DNA of 64,000 bases from Escherichia phage PE37: the sequence record NC_054929.1, one strand, 5' to 3'. A program made the position numbers and the translations under genes. Below the pieces are notes generated by a model. It was not told the DNA's origin. It searched no databases and was given only the letters and a program-made list of their open reading frames with translations. Below are positions 38,789-42,535 of this stretch, in pieces (the first letter of the stretch is position 1; each line of letters opens with the position of its first letter).

Positions 38789-39066
38789 TGGCTCAATTAA
38801 GCGCAGGGTTTGGTTATGAGTATTATACTGCCCCTCGTCGTGCATCTGTTGCTCCTAAGAAAATTCAAAGTCTTGATGACTTCCAAGAAGTAGTCCGTAA
38901 AGCTTTTCAGGACTATGCACGTTATCTTAAAGAAGATTCACAGGACTGTCTCGAAGAAGATGAAATTGCTTACTATACGCAGCGTCTTGAACAGCTCAAA
39001 AATCTACATGAGGTTCGTGCAGAAGTTTCAAAGTCTATGAATAAATTGATTAGATTTAAAGAATAA
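38788..39066 (+). CDS. hypothetical protein
   Basis: Start at [10 protein letters not shown] (TAATG overlap); 92 aa. Confidence 0.5.
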
Positions 39067-39068
39067 CT

Positions 39069-39098
39069 GTTTACTTTTCCTCTTGACTGTGGTATAAT
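39069..39098 (+). promoter_or_regulatory. early promoter upstream of regB
   Basis: GTTTAC-18-TATAAT. Confidence 0.6.
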
Positions 39099-39125
39099 TT
39101 TTCTATCAGTTAAGAGGAGAATAAC

Positions 39126-39587
39126 ATGACTATCAATACAGAAGTTTTTATCCGTCGAAATAAGCTTCGTCGTCACTTTGAGTCGGAGTTTCGTCAAATT
39201 AACAATGAGATTCGTGAGGCATCAAAAGCAGCAGGGGTCTCATCGTTTCATCTAAAATATTCTCAGCATCTTCTTGATCGTGCAATTCAACGGGAGATTG
39301 ATGAGACATATGTTTTTGAATTATTCCACAAAATAAAAGACCATGTTTTAGAAGTTAATGAATTCCTGAGTATGCCTCCGCGTCCTGACATTGACGAGGA
39401 TTTTATTGATGGGGTTGAATATCGTCCTGGGCGTTTGGAAATTACAGATGGAAATCTTTGGCTTGGATTTACAGTTTGTAAGCCTAATGAGAAGTTCAAA
39501 AACCCGTCACTTCAATGCAGGATGGCAATTATCAACAGTCGTCGTTTACCAGGAAAGGCTTCTAAAGCAGTAATTAAAACTCAATGA
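39126..39587 (+). CDS. regB: RegB site-specific endoribonuclease
   Basis: 153 aa, MTINTEVFIRRNKLRRHFESEFRQ, matches T4 RegB from memory. Confidence 0.9.
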   Translation: MTINTEVFIRRNKLRRHFESEFRQINNEIREASKAAGVSSFHLKYSQHLLDRAIQREIDETYVFELFHKIKDHVLEVNEFLSMPPRPDIDEDFIDGVEYRPGRLEITDGNLWLGFTVCKPNEKFKNPSLQCRMAIINSRRLPGKASKAVIKTQ

Positions 39588-39594
39588 GGTAAGC

Positions 39595-40140
39595 ATGAGA
39601 AAAGCACTACTCGCTGGTCTATTGGCCATTTCAATGATGGCACATAGCTCCGAGCATACTTTCAGTAATGTCCAACTCGATAACATGCGTTACGCGTATC
39701 AATTCGGGGAACAATTTTCTAAGGATGGAAAATATAAAACACACAAAAATATCCACAAGAGCGGATTAGGTCATATAATGGCTGCTATTTTATGGCAAGA
39801 AAGCTCTGGCGGAGTTAATTTAAAATCTAAACCAAAGCATCACGCCTACGGAATGTTCCAAAATTATTTGCCTACTATGCGAGCAAGAGTTAAGGAACTT
39901 GGTTATAATATGACCGATGCTGAAATAAAAAGAATGTTGAATAAACGGTCCAATTCAGCTTCCTGGGCGTACATTGAACTTTCTTATTGGTTAAATATAC
40001 ATAAGGGCGATATAAGAAAAGCAATATCCTCTTATAATTCGGGATGGAATGTTAAAGCAGGTTCTAAATATGCTTCTGAAGTCCTAGAAAAGGCTAATTA
40101 CCTTAAAAATAATAAACTTTTGGAAATAGTAAATGACTAA
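39595..40140 (+). CDS. secreted lytic transglycosylase-like protein
   Basis: Signal peptide MRKALLAGLLAISMMAHS; SLT-like motifs LWQESSGG ... AYGMFQ. Confidence 0.65.
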   Translation: MRKALLAGLLAISMMAHSSEHTFSNVQLDNMRYAYQFGEQFSKDGKYKTHKNIHKSGLGHIMAAILWQESSGGVNLKSKPKHHAYGMFQNYLPTMRARVKELGYNMTDAEIKRMLNKRSNSASWAYIELSYWLNIHKGDIRKAISSYNSGWNVKAGSKYASEVLEKANYLKNNKLLEIVND

Positions 40141-40474
40141 AATTTTGGTTTTATGTATAGGATTAATTTCATTTTCTGCGTTAGCAAATACATCATATAC
40201 TGAAATTAGAGAGTATGTAAACCGTACTGCCGCGGATTATTGCGGGAAAAATAAAGCATGCCAAGCTGAATTTGCGCAGAAATTAATATATGCATATAAA
40301 GACGGAGAAAGAGATAAATCAAGCAGATACAAAAATGATACATTGTTAAAACGATATGCTAAAAAGTGGAATACCTTAGAATGTTCAGTTGCGGAGGAGA
40401 AAGATAAAGCCGCTTGTCATTCAATGGTTGACCGTTTAGTAGATTCTTATAATCGAGGATTGAGTACTAGATGA
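40133..40474 (+). CDS. secreted small protein
   Basis: Signal peptide MTKILVLCIGLISFSALA, 4 Cys. Confidence 0.5.
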   Translation: MTKILVLCIGLISFSALANTSYTEIREYVNRTAADYCGKNKACQAEFAQKLIYAYKDGERDKSSRYKNDTLLKRYAKKWNTLECSVAEEKDKAACHSMVDRLVDSYNRGLSTR

Positions 40475-40950
40475 TTGTAAAATATATCAAGGGCGATATT
40501 GTCGCCCTATTTCTTCAAGGTAATATTATTGCGCACGGGTGCAATTGTTTTCATACTATGGGTTCAGGTGTAGCGGGTCAATTAGCAAGAGCCTATCCTA
40601 AAATTTTAGAAATAGATAAAACCACTACTGAGTACGGTTCTCGTGATAAATTAGGCGATATGTCTATTGTTTTTAAACATAATCCTACGGGATTTGGTAT
40701 ATGCTATAACCTGTATACGCAATACGAACCGGGTCCTAATCTTGATTATGGTGCTTTAGTAAACTGCATGATAGAATTAAATCTACAGGCAGAAACCCTT
40801 TTGTTTAAACCAGTAATTTACATTCCACGCATAGGTTGTGGTATTGCTGGCGGTGATTGGGATAAGGTTTCTAAATTAATCGACATGTTTACTCCTGATA
40901 TTGATTTAATAGTGGTGGATTATGAAAGTACATTACCCGCATCCGTTTGA
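40471..40950 (+). CDS. macro-domain protein (TARG1/OARD1-like)
   Basis: Motif HGCNCFHTMGSGVAGQ typical of terminal ADP-ribose glycohydrolase macro domains; 159 aa. Confidence 0.7.
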   Translation: MIVKYIKGDIVALFLQGNIIAHGCNCFHTMGSGVAGQLARAYPKILEIDKTTTEYGSRDKLGDMSIVFKHNPTGFGICYNLYTQYEPGPNLDYGALVNCMIELNLQAETLLFKPVIYIPRIGCGIAGGDWDKVSKLIDMFTPDIDLIVVDYESTLPASV

Positions 40951-41134
40951 TCCTAAAAACAAAGTGGAAATTATTCGTCAATGGGAACGCATTTGCCGTA
41001 CTAAATGCCCAATTAATAGTCCACATGATGTAGATAAAGACTATATTGGAACATTCGTTGAATATACCTTTATTGATAGGAAAGGTCGTAAACAACATGT
41101 AGAAGAATATTGCTTAAAGGTTACATGGTTATGA
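40922..41134 (+). CDS. hypothetical protein
   Basis: 70 aa ORF. Confidence 0.4.
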   Translation: MKVHYPHPFDPKNKVEIIRQWERICRTKCPINSPHDVDKDYIGTFVEYTFIDRKGRKQHVEEYCLKVTWL

Positions 41135-41337
41135 GCCAAACTAGTATTCTTAAAAATGCTCATTGTGAAAAGTGTGAATGGCCAGTTGTTTTTGCTTTAT
41201 GTAATGATGAAATGGCTTGTGATTTCGATTATTGGTGCTATTGTTCCAATAAAGGATGCATCAATCATAAAGGTGAAGGATTTTATTCAGGATTTTATCC
41301 TTATCCTGATTTCGTTAAAGAAGGTAAACCGAAATGA
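41125..41337 (+). CDS. Cys-rich small protein (putative zinc-binding)
   Basis: CEKCEW...CNDEMACDFDYWCYCSNKGC. Confidence 0.45.
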   Translation: MVMSQTSILKNAHCEKCEWPVVFALCNDEMACDFDYWCYCSNKGCINHKGEGFYSGFYPYPDFVKEGKPK

Positions 41338-41503
41338 ATAGTTTTGAGTTACAATATGAAGTGTTACGTGAGCTTGATAATTTAATTGAACTCGCTGCTA
41401 ATAAAGGTTTTGCCATTGGAATCGGTCAAAAAGATACTGACCATTTAACTACGGAAATATTTAAGCAAAAGCGAATTATTTTAAAACTCCTGGAAATTAA
41501 TAT

Positions 41504-41689
41504 ATGAGTCTGAGTAAAGAACAAAAAGATAAATTGTTTGAGCTTATCCATGAACTTCTAGATGAGCATGCAGAAGCAAACACCTTTTATGATGAATACG
41601 GCCCGCTATCTCCCGAACAACAAGAAGAATTTGCTGACCGGTTTGATAAGAAAGAAAACGAATTAATAGCTTATGTGAATACGCTTTAA
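41504..41689 (+). CDS. hypothetical small helical protein
   Basis: 61 aa, MSLSKEQKDKLFELIHEL. Confidence 0.45.
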   Translation: MSLSKEQKDKLFELIHELLDEHAEANTFYDEYGPLSPEQQEEFADRFDKKENELIAYVNTL

Positions 41690-41698
41690 GAAGGTGAT

Positions 41699-42280
41699 AT
41701 GGCGAGTTTAATTTTTACTTATGCAGCAATGAATGCTGGAAAATCTGCTTCTCTTTTGACTGCTGCACATAATTATAAAGAACGTGGAATGAGTGTATTA
41801 GTTCTTAAGCCTGCTATTGATACTCGCGATTCTGTCTGTGAAGTTGTTTCTCGCATTGGAATTAAACAGGAAGCGAATATTATTACAGATGATATGGATA
41901 TTTTCGAGTTCTATAAATGGGCTGAAGCACAAAAAGATATTCATTGTGTATTTGTAGATGAAGCTCAGTTTTTAAAAACTGAACAAGTGCATCAATTGAG
42001 CCGAATTGTTGATACATATAATGTTCCTGTTATGGCTTATGGATTAAGGACTGATTTCGCTGGAAAATTGTTTGAAGGTTCTAAAGAACTTTTAGCGATT
42101 GCAGATAAACTTATTGAACTAAAGGCAGTTTGTCATTGCGGCAAAAAAGCGATTATGACAGCTCGATTAATGGAAGATGGAACACCAGTTAAAGAAGGTA
42201 ATCAAATCTGTATTGGTGATGAAATTTATGTTTCTTTGTGCAGAAAACATTGGAATGAATTAACTAAAAAGCTCGGTTAG
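41699..42280 (+). CDS. tk: thymidine kinase
   Basis: 193 aa, P-loop NAGKSASLL, zinc ribbon CHCGKKA...C. Confidence 0.95.
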   Translation: MASLIFTYAAMNAGKSASLLTAAHNYKERGMSVLVLKPAIDTRDSVCEVVSRIGIKQEANIITDDMDIFEFYKWAEAQKDIHCVFVDEAQFLKTEQVHQLSRIVDTYNVPVMAYGLRTDFAGKLFEGSKELLAIADKLIELKAVCHCGKKAIMTARLMEDGTPVKEGNQICIGDEIYVSLCRKHWNELTKKLG

Positions 42281-42322
42281 TGCAAAAGTTATAAATAGGT
42301 TTATCTAACTAAAGGGGTATAT

Positions 42323-42535
42323 ATGCTACAATTAACTGAAAAGCAACTTCGCAATCTTACTGTTCTTCAATTAGATGAAATTCGTAGGGAAGTTGGAAAT
42401 ATCATTTCAGCTTTGCGTCGAGAAGTATCACTCAACCAATCTCCGGCAGACTATACTAGATTGCGAAATTTTGAAAAATACCTTGATAAAGTTAAGGCCG
42501 TGCATCGGCATAAAGTAAATACAGGACAAAAATGA
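42323..42535 (+). CDS. hypothetical protein
   Basis: 70 aa ORF, RBS AAAGGGG. Confidence 0.45.

What the first reader, a model, noticed from the sequence alone, without database searches (positions are those of the whole stretch)
40471..40950. TARG1/OARD1-type macro domain protein in the early region
The motif HGCNCFHTMGSGVAGQ matches the catalytic-loop pattern of terminal ADP-ribose glycohydrolase macro domains. A macro domain could reverse ADP-ribosylation made by host defence toxins (for example DarT-type DNA ADP-ribosylation), or tune the phage's own ADP-ribosyltransferases.
Basis: partly seen in the sequence, partly recalled or inferred. Interest (0 to 1): 0.5.

Follow-up and report, generated by a model that had tools for sequence, protein, structure and literature searches.

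The report
Phage macrodomain that counters DarT defence
This is the T4-like phage gene tk.4, a small ADP-ribose-removing (macrodomain) enzyme whose phage T4 counterpart was recently shown to protect the phage from the bacterial DarTG2 defence, so the finding is real but already explained.

Summary
The ORF at 40471-40950 (+, 159 aa) is real and is a macrodomain (Pfam PF01661 above its cut-off; AlphaFold model with pLDDT 91). The window is a T4-like phage. The gene lies between vs and tk.3, which makes it the positional orthologue of T4 tk.4. A 2025 preprint showed that T4 tk.4 is the one T4 gene needed to resist DarTG2 and named it AdfM.

The closest solved structures are BT1257, DarG, Poa1p and TARG1, clearly ahead of MacroD-type and viral macrodomains. 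The TARG1 catalytic pair is absent, however: Lys84 is replaced by Gln84 and Asp125 by Ala126. Gln84 is present in 121 of 121 family members. This is the arrangement of Streptomyces SCO6735, a lysine-less enzyme that still removes DarT-made ADP-ribose from thymidine in DNA and is killed by mutating that Gln.

The most likely function is therefore early-expressed removal of thymidine-linked ADP-ribose from phage DNA.

The protein is only 58% identical to T4 Tk.4, although the flanking genes are 97-100% identical. It is a swapped allele in a mosaic hot spot.

Verdict: already known, low to moderate interest.

The parts
40471..40950 (+). tk.4 / adfM-type gene: a 159-aa stand-alone macrodomain protein (coordinates include the stop codon)
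   Evidence: ORF. Pfam Macro, 33.1 bits against a cut-off of 22. PHROG 335, E 1.6e-71. 58% identity over the full length to T4 Tk.4, E 1e-70. AlphaFold2 model with pLDDT 91.3.
40534..40581 (+). Loop 1 (residues 22-37, HGCNCFHTMGSGVAGQ), the ADP-ribose-binding and catalytic loop. His22, Gly23, Asn25 and Cys26 are in every family member that has a residue at those positions.
   Evidence: H22, G23, N25 and C26 occur in 119 of 119 ungapped sequences, and G33 and A35 in 121 of 121. H22 and N25 align with SCO6735 His24 and Asn27. The N27S mutant almost abolishes SCO6735 activity (PMC9411070).
40708..40722 (+). The N-L-Y-T-Q motif (residues 80-84). Gln84 occupies the position of the catalytic Lys of TARG1 (K84) and DarG (K80), and of SCO6735 Gln85.
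   Evidence: MAFFT alignment with sequences taken from PDB chains. N80, Y82 and Q84 are present in 121 of 121 family members. SCO6735 Q85A and Q85E are inactive.
40825..40860 (+). Loop 2 (residues 119-130, PRIGCGIAGGDW), the diphosphate-binding loop. Ala126 stands where TARG1 has Asp125.
   Evidence: Alignments to TARG1 (PRIGCGLDRLQW) and SCO6735 (PRIGCGLAGGTW). G122 and G124 align with SCO6735 G126 and G128.
40471..40474 (+). ATGA overlap of the vs stop codon and the tk.4 start codon, suggesting translational coupling within the operon
   Evidence: Read directly from the sequence. The junction is identical in T4.
39070..39098 (+). Sigma-70-like early-promoter match upstream of regB; the likely source of transcripts that read through vs.1, vs and tk.4
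   Evidence: TTTACT-17-TATAAT with TG, 10 of 12 positions. All genes from regB to tk are co-oriented with short or overlapping junctions. Function as a promoter is inferred; the number of promoter-like matches in the region is not above the shuffled expectation.
40580..41690 (+). Mosaic segment (about 40,580-40,930 plus 41,137-41,690, interrupted by conserved tk.3): the 3' two-thirds of tk.4 and the tk.2/tk.1 region differ from T4 inside otherwise near-identical DNA
   Evidence: Nucleotide identity to T4 is about 100% up to 40490, 37-68% across 40600-40930, and 93-98% in tk.3. It drops to 27-40% from about 41137 to the end of the aligned stretch (41232), and blastn finds no match to T4 across 41136-41502. 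Neighbouring proteins are 97-100% identical to T4, against 58% for Tk.4.

Best explanation
The gene is the tk.4/adfM locus of a T4-like phage: a stand-alone macrodomain ADP-ribosyl-glycohydrolase of the TARG1/ALC1-like class, made early in infection. When the host's DarTG2 system releases DarT2, that toxin attaches ADP-ribose to thymidines in single-stranded phage DNA and blocks replication. This protein most likely binds the ADP-ribose in the cleft formed by loop 1 (HGCNC...MGSG) and loop 2 (PRIGCGIAGG) and hydrolyses the thymidine-ribose bond, restoring the DNA. Catalysis is probably of the SCO6735 type. Gln84, held in place by Asn25, orients the distal ribose, and a water molecule does the chemistry. 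This differs from the Lys (or Lys/Asp) chemistry of DarG and TARG1.

Shown here: the fold, the class, the active-site residues, the synteny and the orthology.
Shown in the literature for relatives: the T4 tk.4 knockout is sensitised to DarTG2; SCO6735 (Gln-type) and PhiKZ AdfM (Lys-type) remove DarT-made ADP-ribose from DNA in vitro.
Inferred: that this 58%-identical allele does the same, and that it acts enzymatically.
For: - Macrodomain: Pfam hit above its cut-off and a confident model.
- Best models in two HMM libraries: the DarG model is the best NCBIfam hit and the only PADLOC hit (E 1.4e-6 and 4.5e-7).
- Orthology: same position as T4 tk.4, between vs and tk.3, with 58% identity over the full length.
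- Genetics in T4: tk.4 was the sole hit needed against DarTG2, and the knockout was sensitised.
- Active site: H22, N25, Q84, G122 and G124 align with SCO6735 H24, N27, Q85, G126 and G128, and these are in every family member that has a residue there. SCO6735 cleaves thymidine-ADPr DNA, and its Q85A/E, N27S and G128E mutants lose activity.
- Class-wide activity: thymidine-ADPr reversal is described as a unifying activity of this macrodomain class. A phage macrodomain, PhiKZ gp104, removes DarT2-made ADPr from DNA in vitro.
Against: - No experiment exists on this allele, which differs from T4 Tk.4 at 42% of positions.
- The T4 evidence is genetic only. The preprint itself says enzymatic removal 'seems likely'.
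- The catalytic Lys of DarG and TARG1 is missing.
- The DNA-contacting Lys34 and Lys89 and the long 'mobile loop' that SCO6735 uses for DNA are also missing (S32; no insertion). DNA handling must therefore differ from the only characterised Gln-type enzyme.
- Public annotation calls the family a 'phosphatase' on the basis of Poa1p/A1pp similarity.
- Macrodomains are promiscuous, so other substrates are not excluded.
Confidence: 0.75

Rival explanations
1. It is mainly a small-molecule ADP-ribose-derivative enzyme, as the database label 'phosphatase' implies: an ADP-ribose-1''-phosphate phosphatase or O-acetyl-ADP-ribose deacetylase like yeast Poa1p. It would clear toxic or signalling ADPr metabolites rather than repair DNA.
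Against: The only phenotype found for the T4 orthologue is specific to DarTG2, a DNA ADP-ribosylating system. Poa1p has Ser where the family's invariant Gln84 stands, and Phe152 where this protein has Ala126. The 'phosphatase' label is an annotation transferred by motif, not a test.
Confidence: 0.1
2. It neutralises DarT2 chiefly by binding and inhibiting the toxin (an antitoxin-like sponge), not by hydrolysis.
For: Catalytically dead SCO6735 Q85A, DarG K80A and TARG1 K84A all inhibit DarT in vitro, and SCO6735 does so most strongly. The T4 data do not separate binding from catalysis.
Against: The protein lacks the C-terminal DarT-binding domain of DarG: it is 159 aa and matches only positions 2-142 of the 338-position DarG profile. 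The strictly invariant residues are active-site residues, as expected for an enzyme, while the surface is free to vary (58% identity between alleles).
Confidence: 0.07
3. It erases or tunes ADP-ribosylation written by the phage's own transferases (Alt, ModA, ModB).
For: T4-like phages carry three ADP-ribosyltransferases (established knowledge), and a writer-eraser pair would be a tidy arrangement.
Against: Alt and Mod enzymes modify arginine (established knowledge). The activities reported for this class in the papers read here are on acidic-residue and nucleic-acid-base linkages. None of the three transferase genes is in or near this operon, by the T4 map (for the local genes). In T4, tk.4 showed reduced read counts only in the presence of DarTG2.
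Confidence: 0.03
4. Its main substrate is ADP-ribosylated RNA (uracil-linked) or the product of another, still unidentified host ADP-ribosylating toxin. DarT2 reversal would then be a side activity.
For: TARG1, DarG and SCO6735 also reverse uracil-ADPr on single-stranded RNA, and SCO6735 and TARG1 do so more efficiently than DarG (PMC13036486). Allele replacement at this locus could reflect shifting targets.
Against: No bacterial uracil-ADP-ribosylating defence is described in the papers read. The T4 screen gave a clean DarTG2-specific phenotype.
Confidence: 0.05

Closest known systems
Phage T4 Tk.4 = AdfM (anti-DarT factor Macrodomain; bioRxiv 10.1101/2025.11.20.689424)
   Same: Same locus between vs and tk.3, the same start context (ATGA overlap with vs), the same length class (155 against 159 aa), and the same invariant residues (H22, N25, NLYTQ, PRIG.G...W). 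It aligns end to end at E 1e-70.
   Different: Only 58% identical, although the neighbouring proteins are 97-100% identical. The divergence is concentrated after residue ~45. The protein has 4 extra C-terminal residues and overlaps tk.3 by 29 nt instead of 4. Protection against DarTG2 has been shown only for the T4 allele.
Streptomyces coelicolor SCO6735 (PDB 5E3B) and Bacteroides BT1257 (2AFC/2FG1)
   Different: About 25-28% identity. The phage protein lacks the 6-residue 'mobile loop' insertion after the Gln and the DNA-contacting Lys34 and Lys89. SCO6735 is a cellular, DNA-damage-induced gene rather than a phage counter-defence gene.
DarG antitoxin macrodomain (T. aquaticus 5M31/5M3E, M. 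tuberculosis 5M3I; NCBIfam NF048014)
   Different: 27.8 bits against a cut-off of 250. Gln84 replaces the catalytic Lys80. There is no C-terminal DarT-binding domain and no adjacent darT gene. A genuine DarT-DarG operon used as a positive control scores 415.7 bits.
Human TARG1/OARD1 (PDB 4J5R/4J5S)
   Same: Top Foldseek hit (E 1.2e-9, TM 0.82). The loop patterns are shared: AHC...MGAGIA and PRIGCG...W. TARG1 also reverses thymidine-ADPr.
   Different: About 20% identity and phmmer E 0.01. The defining Lys84/Asp125 dyad is replaced by Gln84/Ala126.
PhiKZ gp104, also named AdfM (Cell Rep 2026, PMC13309987)
   Same: A phage-encoded stand-alone macrodomain that counters DarTG2. Removal of DarT2-made ADPr from DNA was shown in vitro.
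   Different: It belongs to a different lineage. It is DarG-like, with the catalytic Lys (MFPTKDNW) and a VNVVGVMGAG loop 1. BLASTP to the window protein gives only fragmentary matches (E 0.013). It is imported into the phage nucleus.
Yeast Poa1p (PDB 6LFQ), ADP-ribose-1''-phosphate phosphatase
   Different: Ser at the Gln84 position, Phe152 at the Ala126 position, and a large insertion before loop 2. It acts on metabolites, not DNA.

Membership tests
Macro domain superfamily (Pfam PF01661) | Profile score above the curated gathering threshold | tested here: met
   33.1 bits against a cut-off of 22, E 5.8e-8, covering profile positions 2-117 of 118.
Macro domain superfamily (Pfam PF01661) | Three-layer alpha/beta/alpha macro fold | tested here: met
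ALC1/TARG1-like macrodomain class (TARG1, DarG, SCO6735, BT1257) | Class members are the nearest structural neighbours, clearly ahead of MacroD-type, viral, PARG and macroH2A macrodomains | tested here: met
TARG1/OARD1 proper | Catalytic Lys84 | tested here: not met
   Gln84 stands in that alignment column. Gln is present in 121 of 121 family members. The TARG1 sequence used was checked against PDB 2LGR.
TARG1/OARD1 proper | Asp125, the partner of Lys84 in the catalytic dyad | tested here: not met
   Ala126 (PRIGCGIAGGDW against PRIGCGLDRLQW).
DarG antitoxin (NCBIfam NF048014 equivalog) | Score above the curated cut-off (250 bits) | tested here: not met
   27.8 bits. A genuine DarG from a DarT-DarG operon scores 415.7 bits.
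DarG antitoxin (NCBIfam NF048014 equivalog) | Catalytic Lys80 | tested here: not met
   Gln84 aligns with Lys80 of T. aquaticus and M. tuberculosis DarG.
DarG antitoxin (NCBIfam NF048014 equivalog) | C-terminal DarT-binding domain and an adjacent darT (DUF4433) gene | tested here: not met
   The protein is 159 aa and matches only profile positions 2-142 of 338. Its neighbours are vs and tk.3.
SCO6735/BT1257 subclass (Gln-type ALC1-like hydrolases) | Gln at the catalytic position, supported by the loop-1 Asn, the His, and the G-x-G of loop 2 | tested here: met
   Q84, N25, H22, G122 and G124 align with Q85, N27, H24, G126 and G128. The roles of these residues are described in PMC9411070.
SCO6735/BT1257 subclass (Gln-type ALC1-like hydrolases) | Extended 'mobile loop' after the Gln, and the DNA-contacting Lys34 and Lys89 | tested here: not met
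   SCO6735 and BT1257 carry a 6-residue insertion that is absent here. Ser32 stands at the Lys34 position (feature described).
T4 Tk.4 / AdfM (T-even anti-DarT2 macrodomain) | Positional orthology (between vs and tk.3) and full-length sequence similarity | tested here: met
   Synteny. 58% identity over 155 aa, E 1e-70.
T4 Tk.4 / AdfM (T-even anti-DarT2 macrodomain) | Protects the phage from DarTG2 | not testable with these tools
   Shown only for the T4 allele. It needs a plaque assay with this allele.
Poa1p-type ADP-ribose-1''-phosphate phosphatase | Sequence and structure similarity, and Appr-1''-p phosphatase activity | tested here: inconclusive
MacroD/YmdB-type O-acetyl-ADP-ribose deacetylase | NCBIfam equivalog score above the cut-off | tested here: not met

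The most novel reading that the evidence does not exclude
The T-even AdfM family is not a captured DarG antitoxin. It would be a separate, lysine-less (Gln-type) branch of TARG1-like macrodomains, derived from stand-alone cellular genes like SCO6735/BT1257, and it works without either the catalytic Lys or the SCO6735 DNA clamp. On this reading, the sharp allele replacement at tk.4 (58% identity inside 97-100% identical flanks) reflects an arms race, in which different alleles are matched to different DarT2 variants or to additional substrates such as uracil-ADPr RNA.
Probability: 0.3. Interest if true: 0.45.

Novelty: already known. Interest (0 to 1): 0.22.

Why it matters
The result confirms that a raw-sequence reader can pick out a genuine counter-defence gene. 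It adds three modest points to what is published.

1. T-even AdfM carries Gln, not Lys, at the catalytic position. Mechanistically it belongs with SCO6735 rather than with DarG, the comparator used in the T4 preprint.
2. The name AdfM now covers two unrelated macrodomain lineages: the Gln-type T4 Tk.4 and the Lys-type PhiKZ gp104.
3. T4-like phages carry at least two strongly diverged tk.4 alleles exchanged by recombination. This is a natural allele-swap experiment for testing DarT2 specificity.

None of this changes the overall picture. The gene's kind and role are already described.

Tried and rejected
- Pairwise HMMER alignment to BT1257 placed Gln84 opposite a Lys in the BT1257 loop. The multiple alignment with SCO6735, DarG, TARG1 and ALC1 shows this was a gap-placement artefact: NLYTQ aligns with NMIGQ.
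- A truncated query meant to bring SCO6735 and DarG alignments into view in the PDB search recovered only loop 2. The full SCO6735 sequence came from querying with BT1257. The DarG sequences came from querying with a plasmid DarG found by tblastn.
- The CmdTAC paper was checked for any link between T4 macrodomains and RNA ADP-ribosylation. It has none.
- The NAD/ADPr virus survey (PMC9503650): in the 12 of 54 passages shown by a term search, T4 Tk.4 is not mentioned.
- One bacterial homologue (Pelagimonas, P0096) was checked for a neighbouring DarT-like toxin. There is none. This is a single locus and so only weak evidence about origin.
- MacroD/YmdB-type and DarG equivalog membership were considered and rejected on scores.
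- The intragenic terminator-like hairpin at 40490-40508 was considered as a possible regulatory element. It was not pursued because it lies in a segment that is simply identical to T4.

Full report
**1. The observation**

The + strand carries an ORF from ATG 40471 to a stop codon ending at 40950, encoding 159 aa. The quoted motif HGCNCFHTMGSGVAGQ is residues 22-37.

The ORF is not a chance reading frame:
- It passes Pfam's Macro model: PF01661, 33.1 bits against a gathering score of 22, E 5.8e-8, covering almost the whole profile.
- It matches PHROG 335 at E 1.6e-71.
- tblastn finds relatives in 2776 phage records.
- 795 proteins match at E<=1e-3 in the large protein collection.
- An AlphaFold2 model built on 34 homologues is confident (pLDDT 91.3, pTM 0.87) and has the alternating strand/helix layout of a macrodomain.

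**2. Where the gene sits**

The window is a Tequatrovirus. Bases 39000-42500 are 98.9% identical to Escherichia phage EO1 and similar to hundreds of T4-like genomes.

The local gene order is regB (39126-39587), vs.1 (39595-40140), vs (40133-40474), this gene, tk.3 (40922-41134), three small ORFs, and tk (41699-42280). It matches the annotated order in T4 and its relatives. The gene is therefore the positional orthologue of T4 tk.4, which the T4 record annotates as 'phosphatase; contains A1pp phosphatase motif'.

All genes in the block are co-oriented. The tk.4 ATG overlaps the vs stop codon (ATGA). The best sigma-70-like match in the region (TTTACT-17-TATAAT with TG) lies just upstream of regB at 39070-39098. 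Early, operon-style expression is thus a reasonable inference. It is not shown here, and the number of promoter-like matches in the region is not above the shuffled expectation.

**3. What kind of macrodomain it is**

Sequence search against solved structures:

| Structure | E-value |
|---|---|
| Bacteroides BT1257 | 1.6e-10 |
| Yeast Poa1p | 1.5e-9 |
| Streptomyces SCO6735 | 8.5e-8 |
| M. tuberculosis DarG macrodomain | 4.8e-5 |
| Human TARG1 | 0.01 |

The DarG model is the best NCBIfam hit and the only PADLOC hit, but far below membership level: 27.8 bits against a cut-off of 250. A real DarG from a DarT-DarG operon on a Haliscomenobacter plasmid scores 415.7 bits.

This is a TARG1/ALC1-like macrodomain, not a MacroD-type one.

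**4. The catalytic residues**

I assembled reference sequences from PDB chains as printed by the search tool:
- BT1257
- SCO6735 and ALC1
- T. aquaticus and M. tuberculosis DarG
- PhiKZ gp104, translated from the construct printed in PMC13309987

In the MAFFT alignments one column holds TARG1 Lys84, DarG Lys80, PhiKZ gp104 Lys, SCO6735 Gln85, BT1257 Gln, ALC1 Gln, and Gln84 of both the window protein and T4 Tk.4. TARG1 Asp125 aligns with Ala126 here (Gly in T4 and DarG, Ala in SCO6735 and BT1257).

Gln84 lies in an N-L-Y-T-Q motif. Asn80, Tyr82 and Gln84 are present in 121 of 121 family members. His22, Gly23, Asn25 and Cys26 are in every member that has a residue there (119 of 119), and Gly122 and Gly124 in 120 of 120.

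The test is too strict, however. SCO6735 has neither Lys84/Lys80 nor Asp125, yet it removes DarT-made ADP-ribose from thymidine in DNA faster than DarG or TARG1. It is inactivated by Q85A/E, nearly so by N27S, and weakened by G128E. A water-mediated mechanism in which Gln85 positions the distal ribose has been proposed (PMC9411070). The window protein has the counterparts of all these residues: H22, N25, Q84, G122 and G124.

It lacks two other SCO6735 features: the 6-residue 'mobile loop' insertion after the Gln, and the DNA-contacting Lys34 and Lys89 (Ser32; loop absent). In that respect it resembles DarG and TARG1. It is best described as a distinct Gln-type branch of the class.

**5. What it does**

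The decisive evidence is in the literature.
- A transposon screen of phage T4 (HIDEN-SEQ, bioRxiv 10.1101/2025.11.20.689424) found tk.4 as the single gene depleted on a DarTG2-expressing host.
- A clean tk.4 deletion sensitised T4 to DarTG2.
- The authors named the gene adfM (anti-DarT factor Macrodomain). They inferred, without assaying it, that the protein removes ADP-ribose from DNA.
- Independently, a DarG-like macrodomain of the jumbo phage PhiKZ (gp104, also named AdfM) was shown to remove DarT2-made ADP-ribose from an oligonucleotide and to rescue cells from DarT2 (PMC13309987).
- Thymidine-ADPr reversal is described as the unifying activity of this macrodomain class.
- TARG1, DarG and SCO6735 also reverse uracil-ADPr on RNA (PMC13036486).

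Taken together, the most likely mechanism for the window protein is this. It is made early. It binds ADP-ribose attached by DarT2 to thymidines of single-stranded phage DNA. It then hydrolyses the base-ribose bond with SCO6735-type Gln/Asn/water chemistry, which lifts the replication block. I put this at about 0.75. The missing quarter reflects three gaps: no experiment exists on this allele, the T4 evidence is genetic only, and the DNA-binding elements of the one characterised Gln-type enzyme are absent.

**6. Rivals**

- *Metabolite enzyme (Appr-1''-p phosphatase or OAADPr deacetylase), about 0.1.* It rests on transferred annotation and on real but not privileged similarity to Poa1p, which has Ser and Phe at the two key positions. 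It does not explain the DarTG2-specific phenotype.
- *Toxin-binding mechanism, about 0.07.* It is conceivable because dead SCO6735, DarG and TARG1 all inhibit DarT in vitro. But the protein lacks DarG's DarT-binding domain, and what is conserved is the active site.
- *Erasing the phage's own Alt/ModA/ModB marks, about 0.03.* This is unlikely. Those enzymes modify arginine (established knowledge), and the activities reported for this class in the papers read here are on acidic-residue and nucleic-acid-base linkages. In T4, tk.4 showed reduced read counts only in the presence of DarTG2.
- *A primary RNA (uracil-ADPr) or unknown-toxin substrate, about 0.05.* This remains possible.

**7. Comparison with T4 and the mosaic**

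The window protein is only 58% identical to T4 Tk.4, whereas RegB, Vs.1, Vs, Tk, RI.1 and RI.-1 are 98-100% identical and RI 97%.

Nucleotide identity to T4 along the region:

| Window coordinates | Identity to T4 |
|---|---|
| up to 40490 | about 100% |
| 40490 to about 40600 (catalytic loop 1) | 82-92% |
| 40600-40930 | 37-68% |
| 40990-41136 (tk.3) | 92-98% |
| 41137-41232 (end of the aligned stretch) | 27-40% |

In the last segment T4's tk.2/tk.1 are replaced by other small ORFs of unknown function (PHROGs 2306 and 3452); blastn finds no match to T4 between 41136 and 41502. These sharp boundaries indicate recombinational allele replacement rather than gradual drift.

The window-type allele is common. 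About 270 phage records carry a copy at >=95% identity, and the closest cluster in the large protein collection (97% identical) stands for 304 sequences. T2 and many others carry the T4-type allele, 58% identical to the window protein. Whether the alleles differ in specificity is unknown.

**8. Origin**

The preprint compares Tk.4 with DarG. My alignments place it no closer to DarG than to BT1257, SCO6735, TARG1 or Poa1p. A family HMM scores them at 71 bits (BT1257), 40-65 (the three DarG sequences), 63 (TARG1), 60 (SCO6735) and 49 (Poa1p).

The protein has the Gln of the stand-alone cellular enzymes rather than the Lys of every DarG examined. The one bacterial chromosomal homologue whose neighbourhood I inspected (Pelagimonas) stands alone among housekeeping genes, with no DUF4433 toxin nearby. 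This hints that T-even AdfM was not captured from a DarTG operon, unlike the DarG-like PhiKZ gp104. One locus is weak evidence, and a proper phylogeny is needed.

**9. Verdict**

It is wrong on the TARG1 catalytic subtype and unsupported on the own-transferase idea.
- The gene and its role are already described for the T4 orthologue, so novelty is low ('already known').
- The residual interest lies in the Gln-type chemistry, the two-lineage use of the name AdfM, and the allele mosaic.
- Interest: 0.22.

Noticed in passing
window 40580-41690: A recombination mosaic relative to T4. The 3' two-thirds of tk.4 (37-68% nt identity) and the tk.2/tk.1 region differ (27-40% nt identity in the aligned part, no blastn match to T4 across 41136-41502). 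There, ORFs 41110-41337 and 41334-41507 belong to PHROGs 2306 and 3452 of unknown function, and ORF 41504-41689 is 54% identical to Tk.2. tk.3 and all outer neighbours are 91-100% identical to T4.
   Followed up: partly
window 40922-40950: tk.4 and tk.3 overlap by 29 nt here, because this Tk.4 has four extra C-terminal residues (PASV). In T4 the two genes overlap by only 4 nt.
   Followed up: no
window 40490-40508: A perfect 7-bp GC-rich hairpin (AGGGCGA-TATTG-TCGCCCT) followed by a T-rich stretch, inside tk.4 codons 7-13. The scan lists it as terminator-like on both strands. It is identical in T4. It may be only a by-product of the conserved KGDIVAL coding sequence.
   Followed up: partly
literature (PMC13309987 against bioRxiv 10.1101/2025.11.20.689424): Two groups gave the name AdfM to non-orthologous phage macrodomains. 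PhiKZ gp104 is DarG-like with the catalytic Lys (MFPTKDNW). T4 Tk.4 and this protein are Gln-type (NLYTQ). BLASTP between the two gives only fragmentary matches.
   Followed up: yes
hits H74-H81, H88, H91 (Bacillus plasmids); H46 (Vibrio phage VPG01); H47 (Streptomyces phage Moab): Distant family members occur in other contexts. On Bacillus plasmids they lie under genes annotated 'SLOG family protein'. In a Vibrio phage one lies next to a ribose-phosphate pyrophosphokinase. Streptomyces phage Moab also has a homologue, and a published survey describes Moab as pairing a sirtuin gene with a Macro-domain gene. This suggests that other branches of the family handle other ADPr chemistry.
   Followed up: no
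L004 6001-6459 (Pelagimonas phthalicica chromosome): A 40%-identical bacterial homologue is a stand-alone chromosomal gene with no DarT/DUF4433 neighbour. Its neighbours include a peptidase M23, a tryptophan halogenase-like gene and a peptidase U32.
   Followed up: partly
window 39595-40140 (vs.1): Vs.1 is 100% identical to T4 Vs.1. It begins with a hydrophobic, signal-peptide-like N-terminus (not tested with a predictor) and weakly matches endolysin and lytic-tail-protein PHROGs (E 1e-5 to 5e-4), hinting at a secreted transglycosylase-like protein of unknown role.
   Followed up: no
hit H56, E. coli plasmid CP057073.1 19856-20308: A 137.6-kb E. coli 'plasmid' record encodes a 43%-identical homologue annotated as a hypothetical protein. 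It may be a phage-plasmid or a misassigned phage genome.
   Followed up: no
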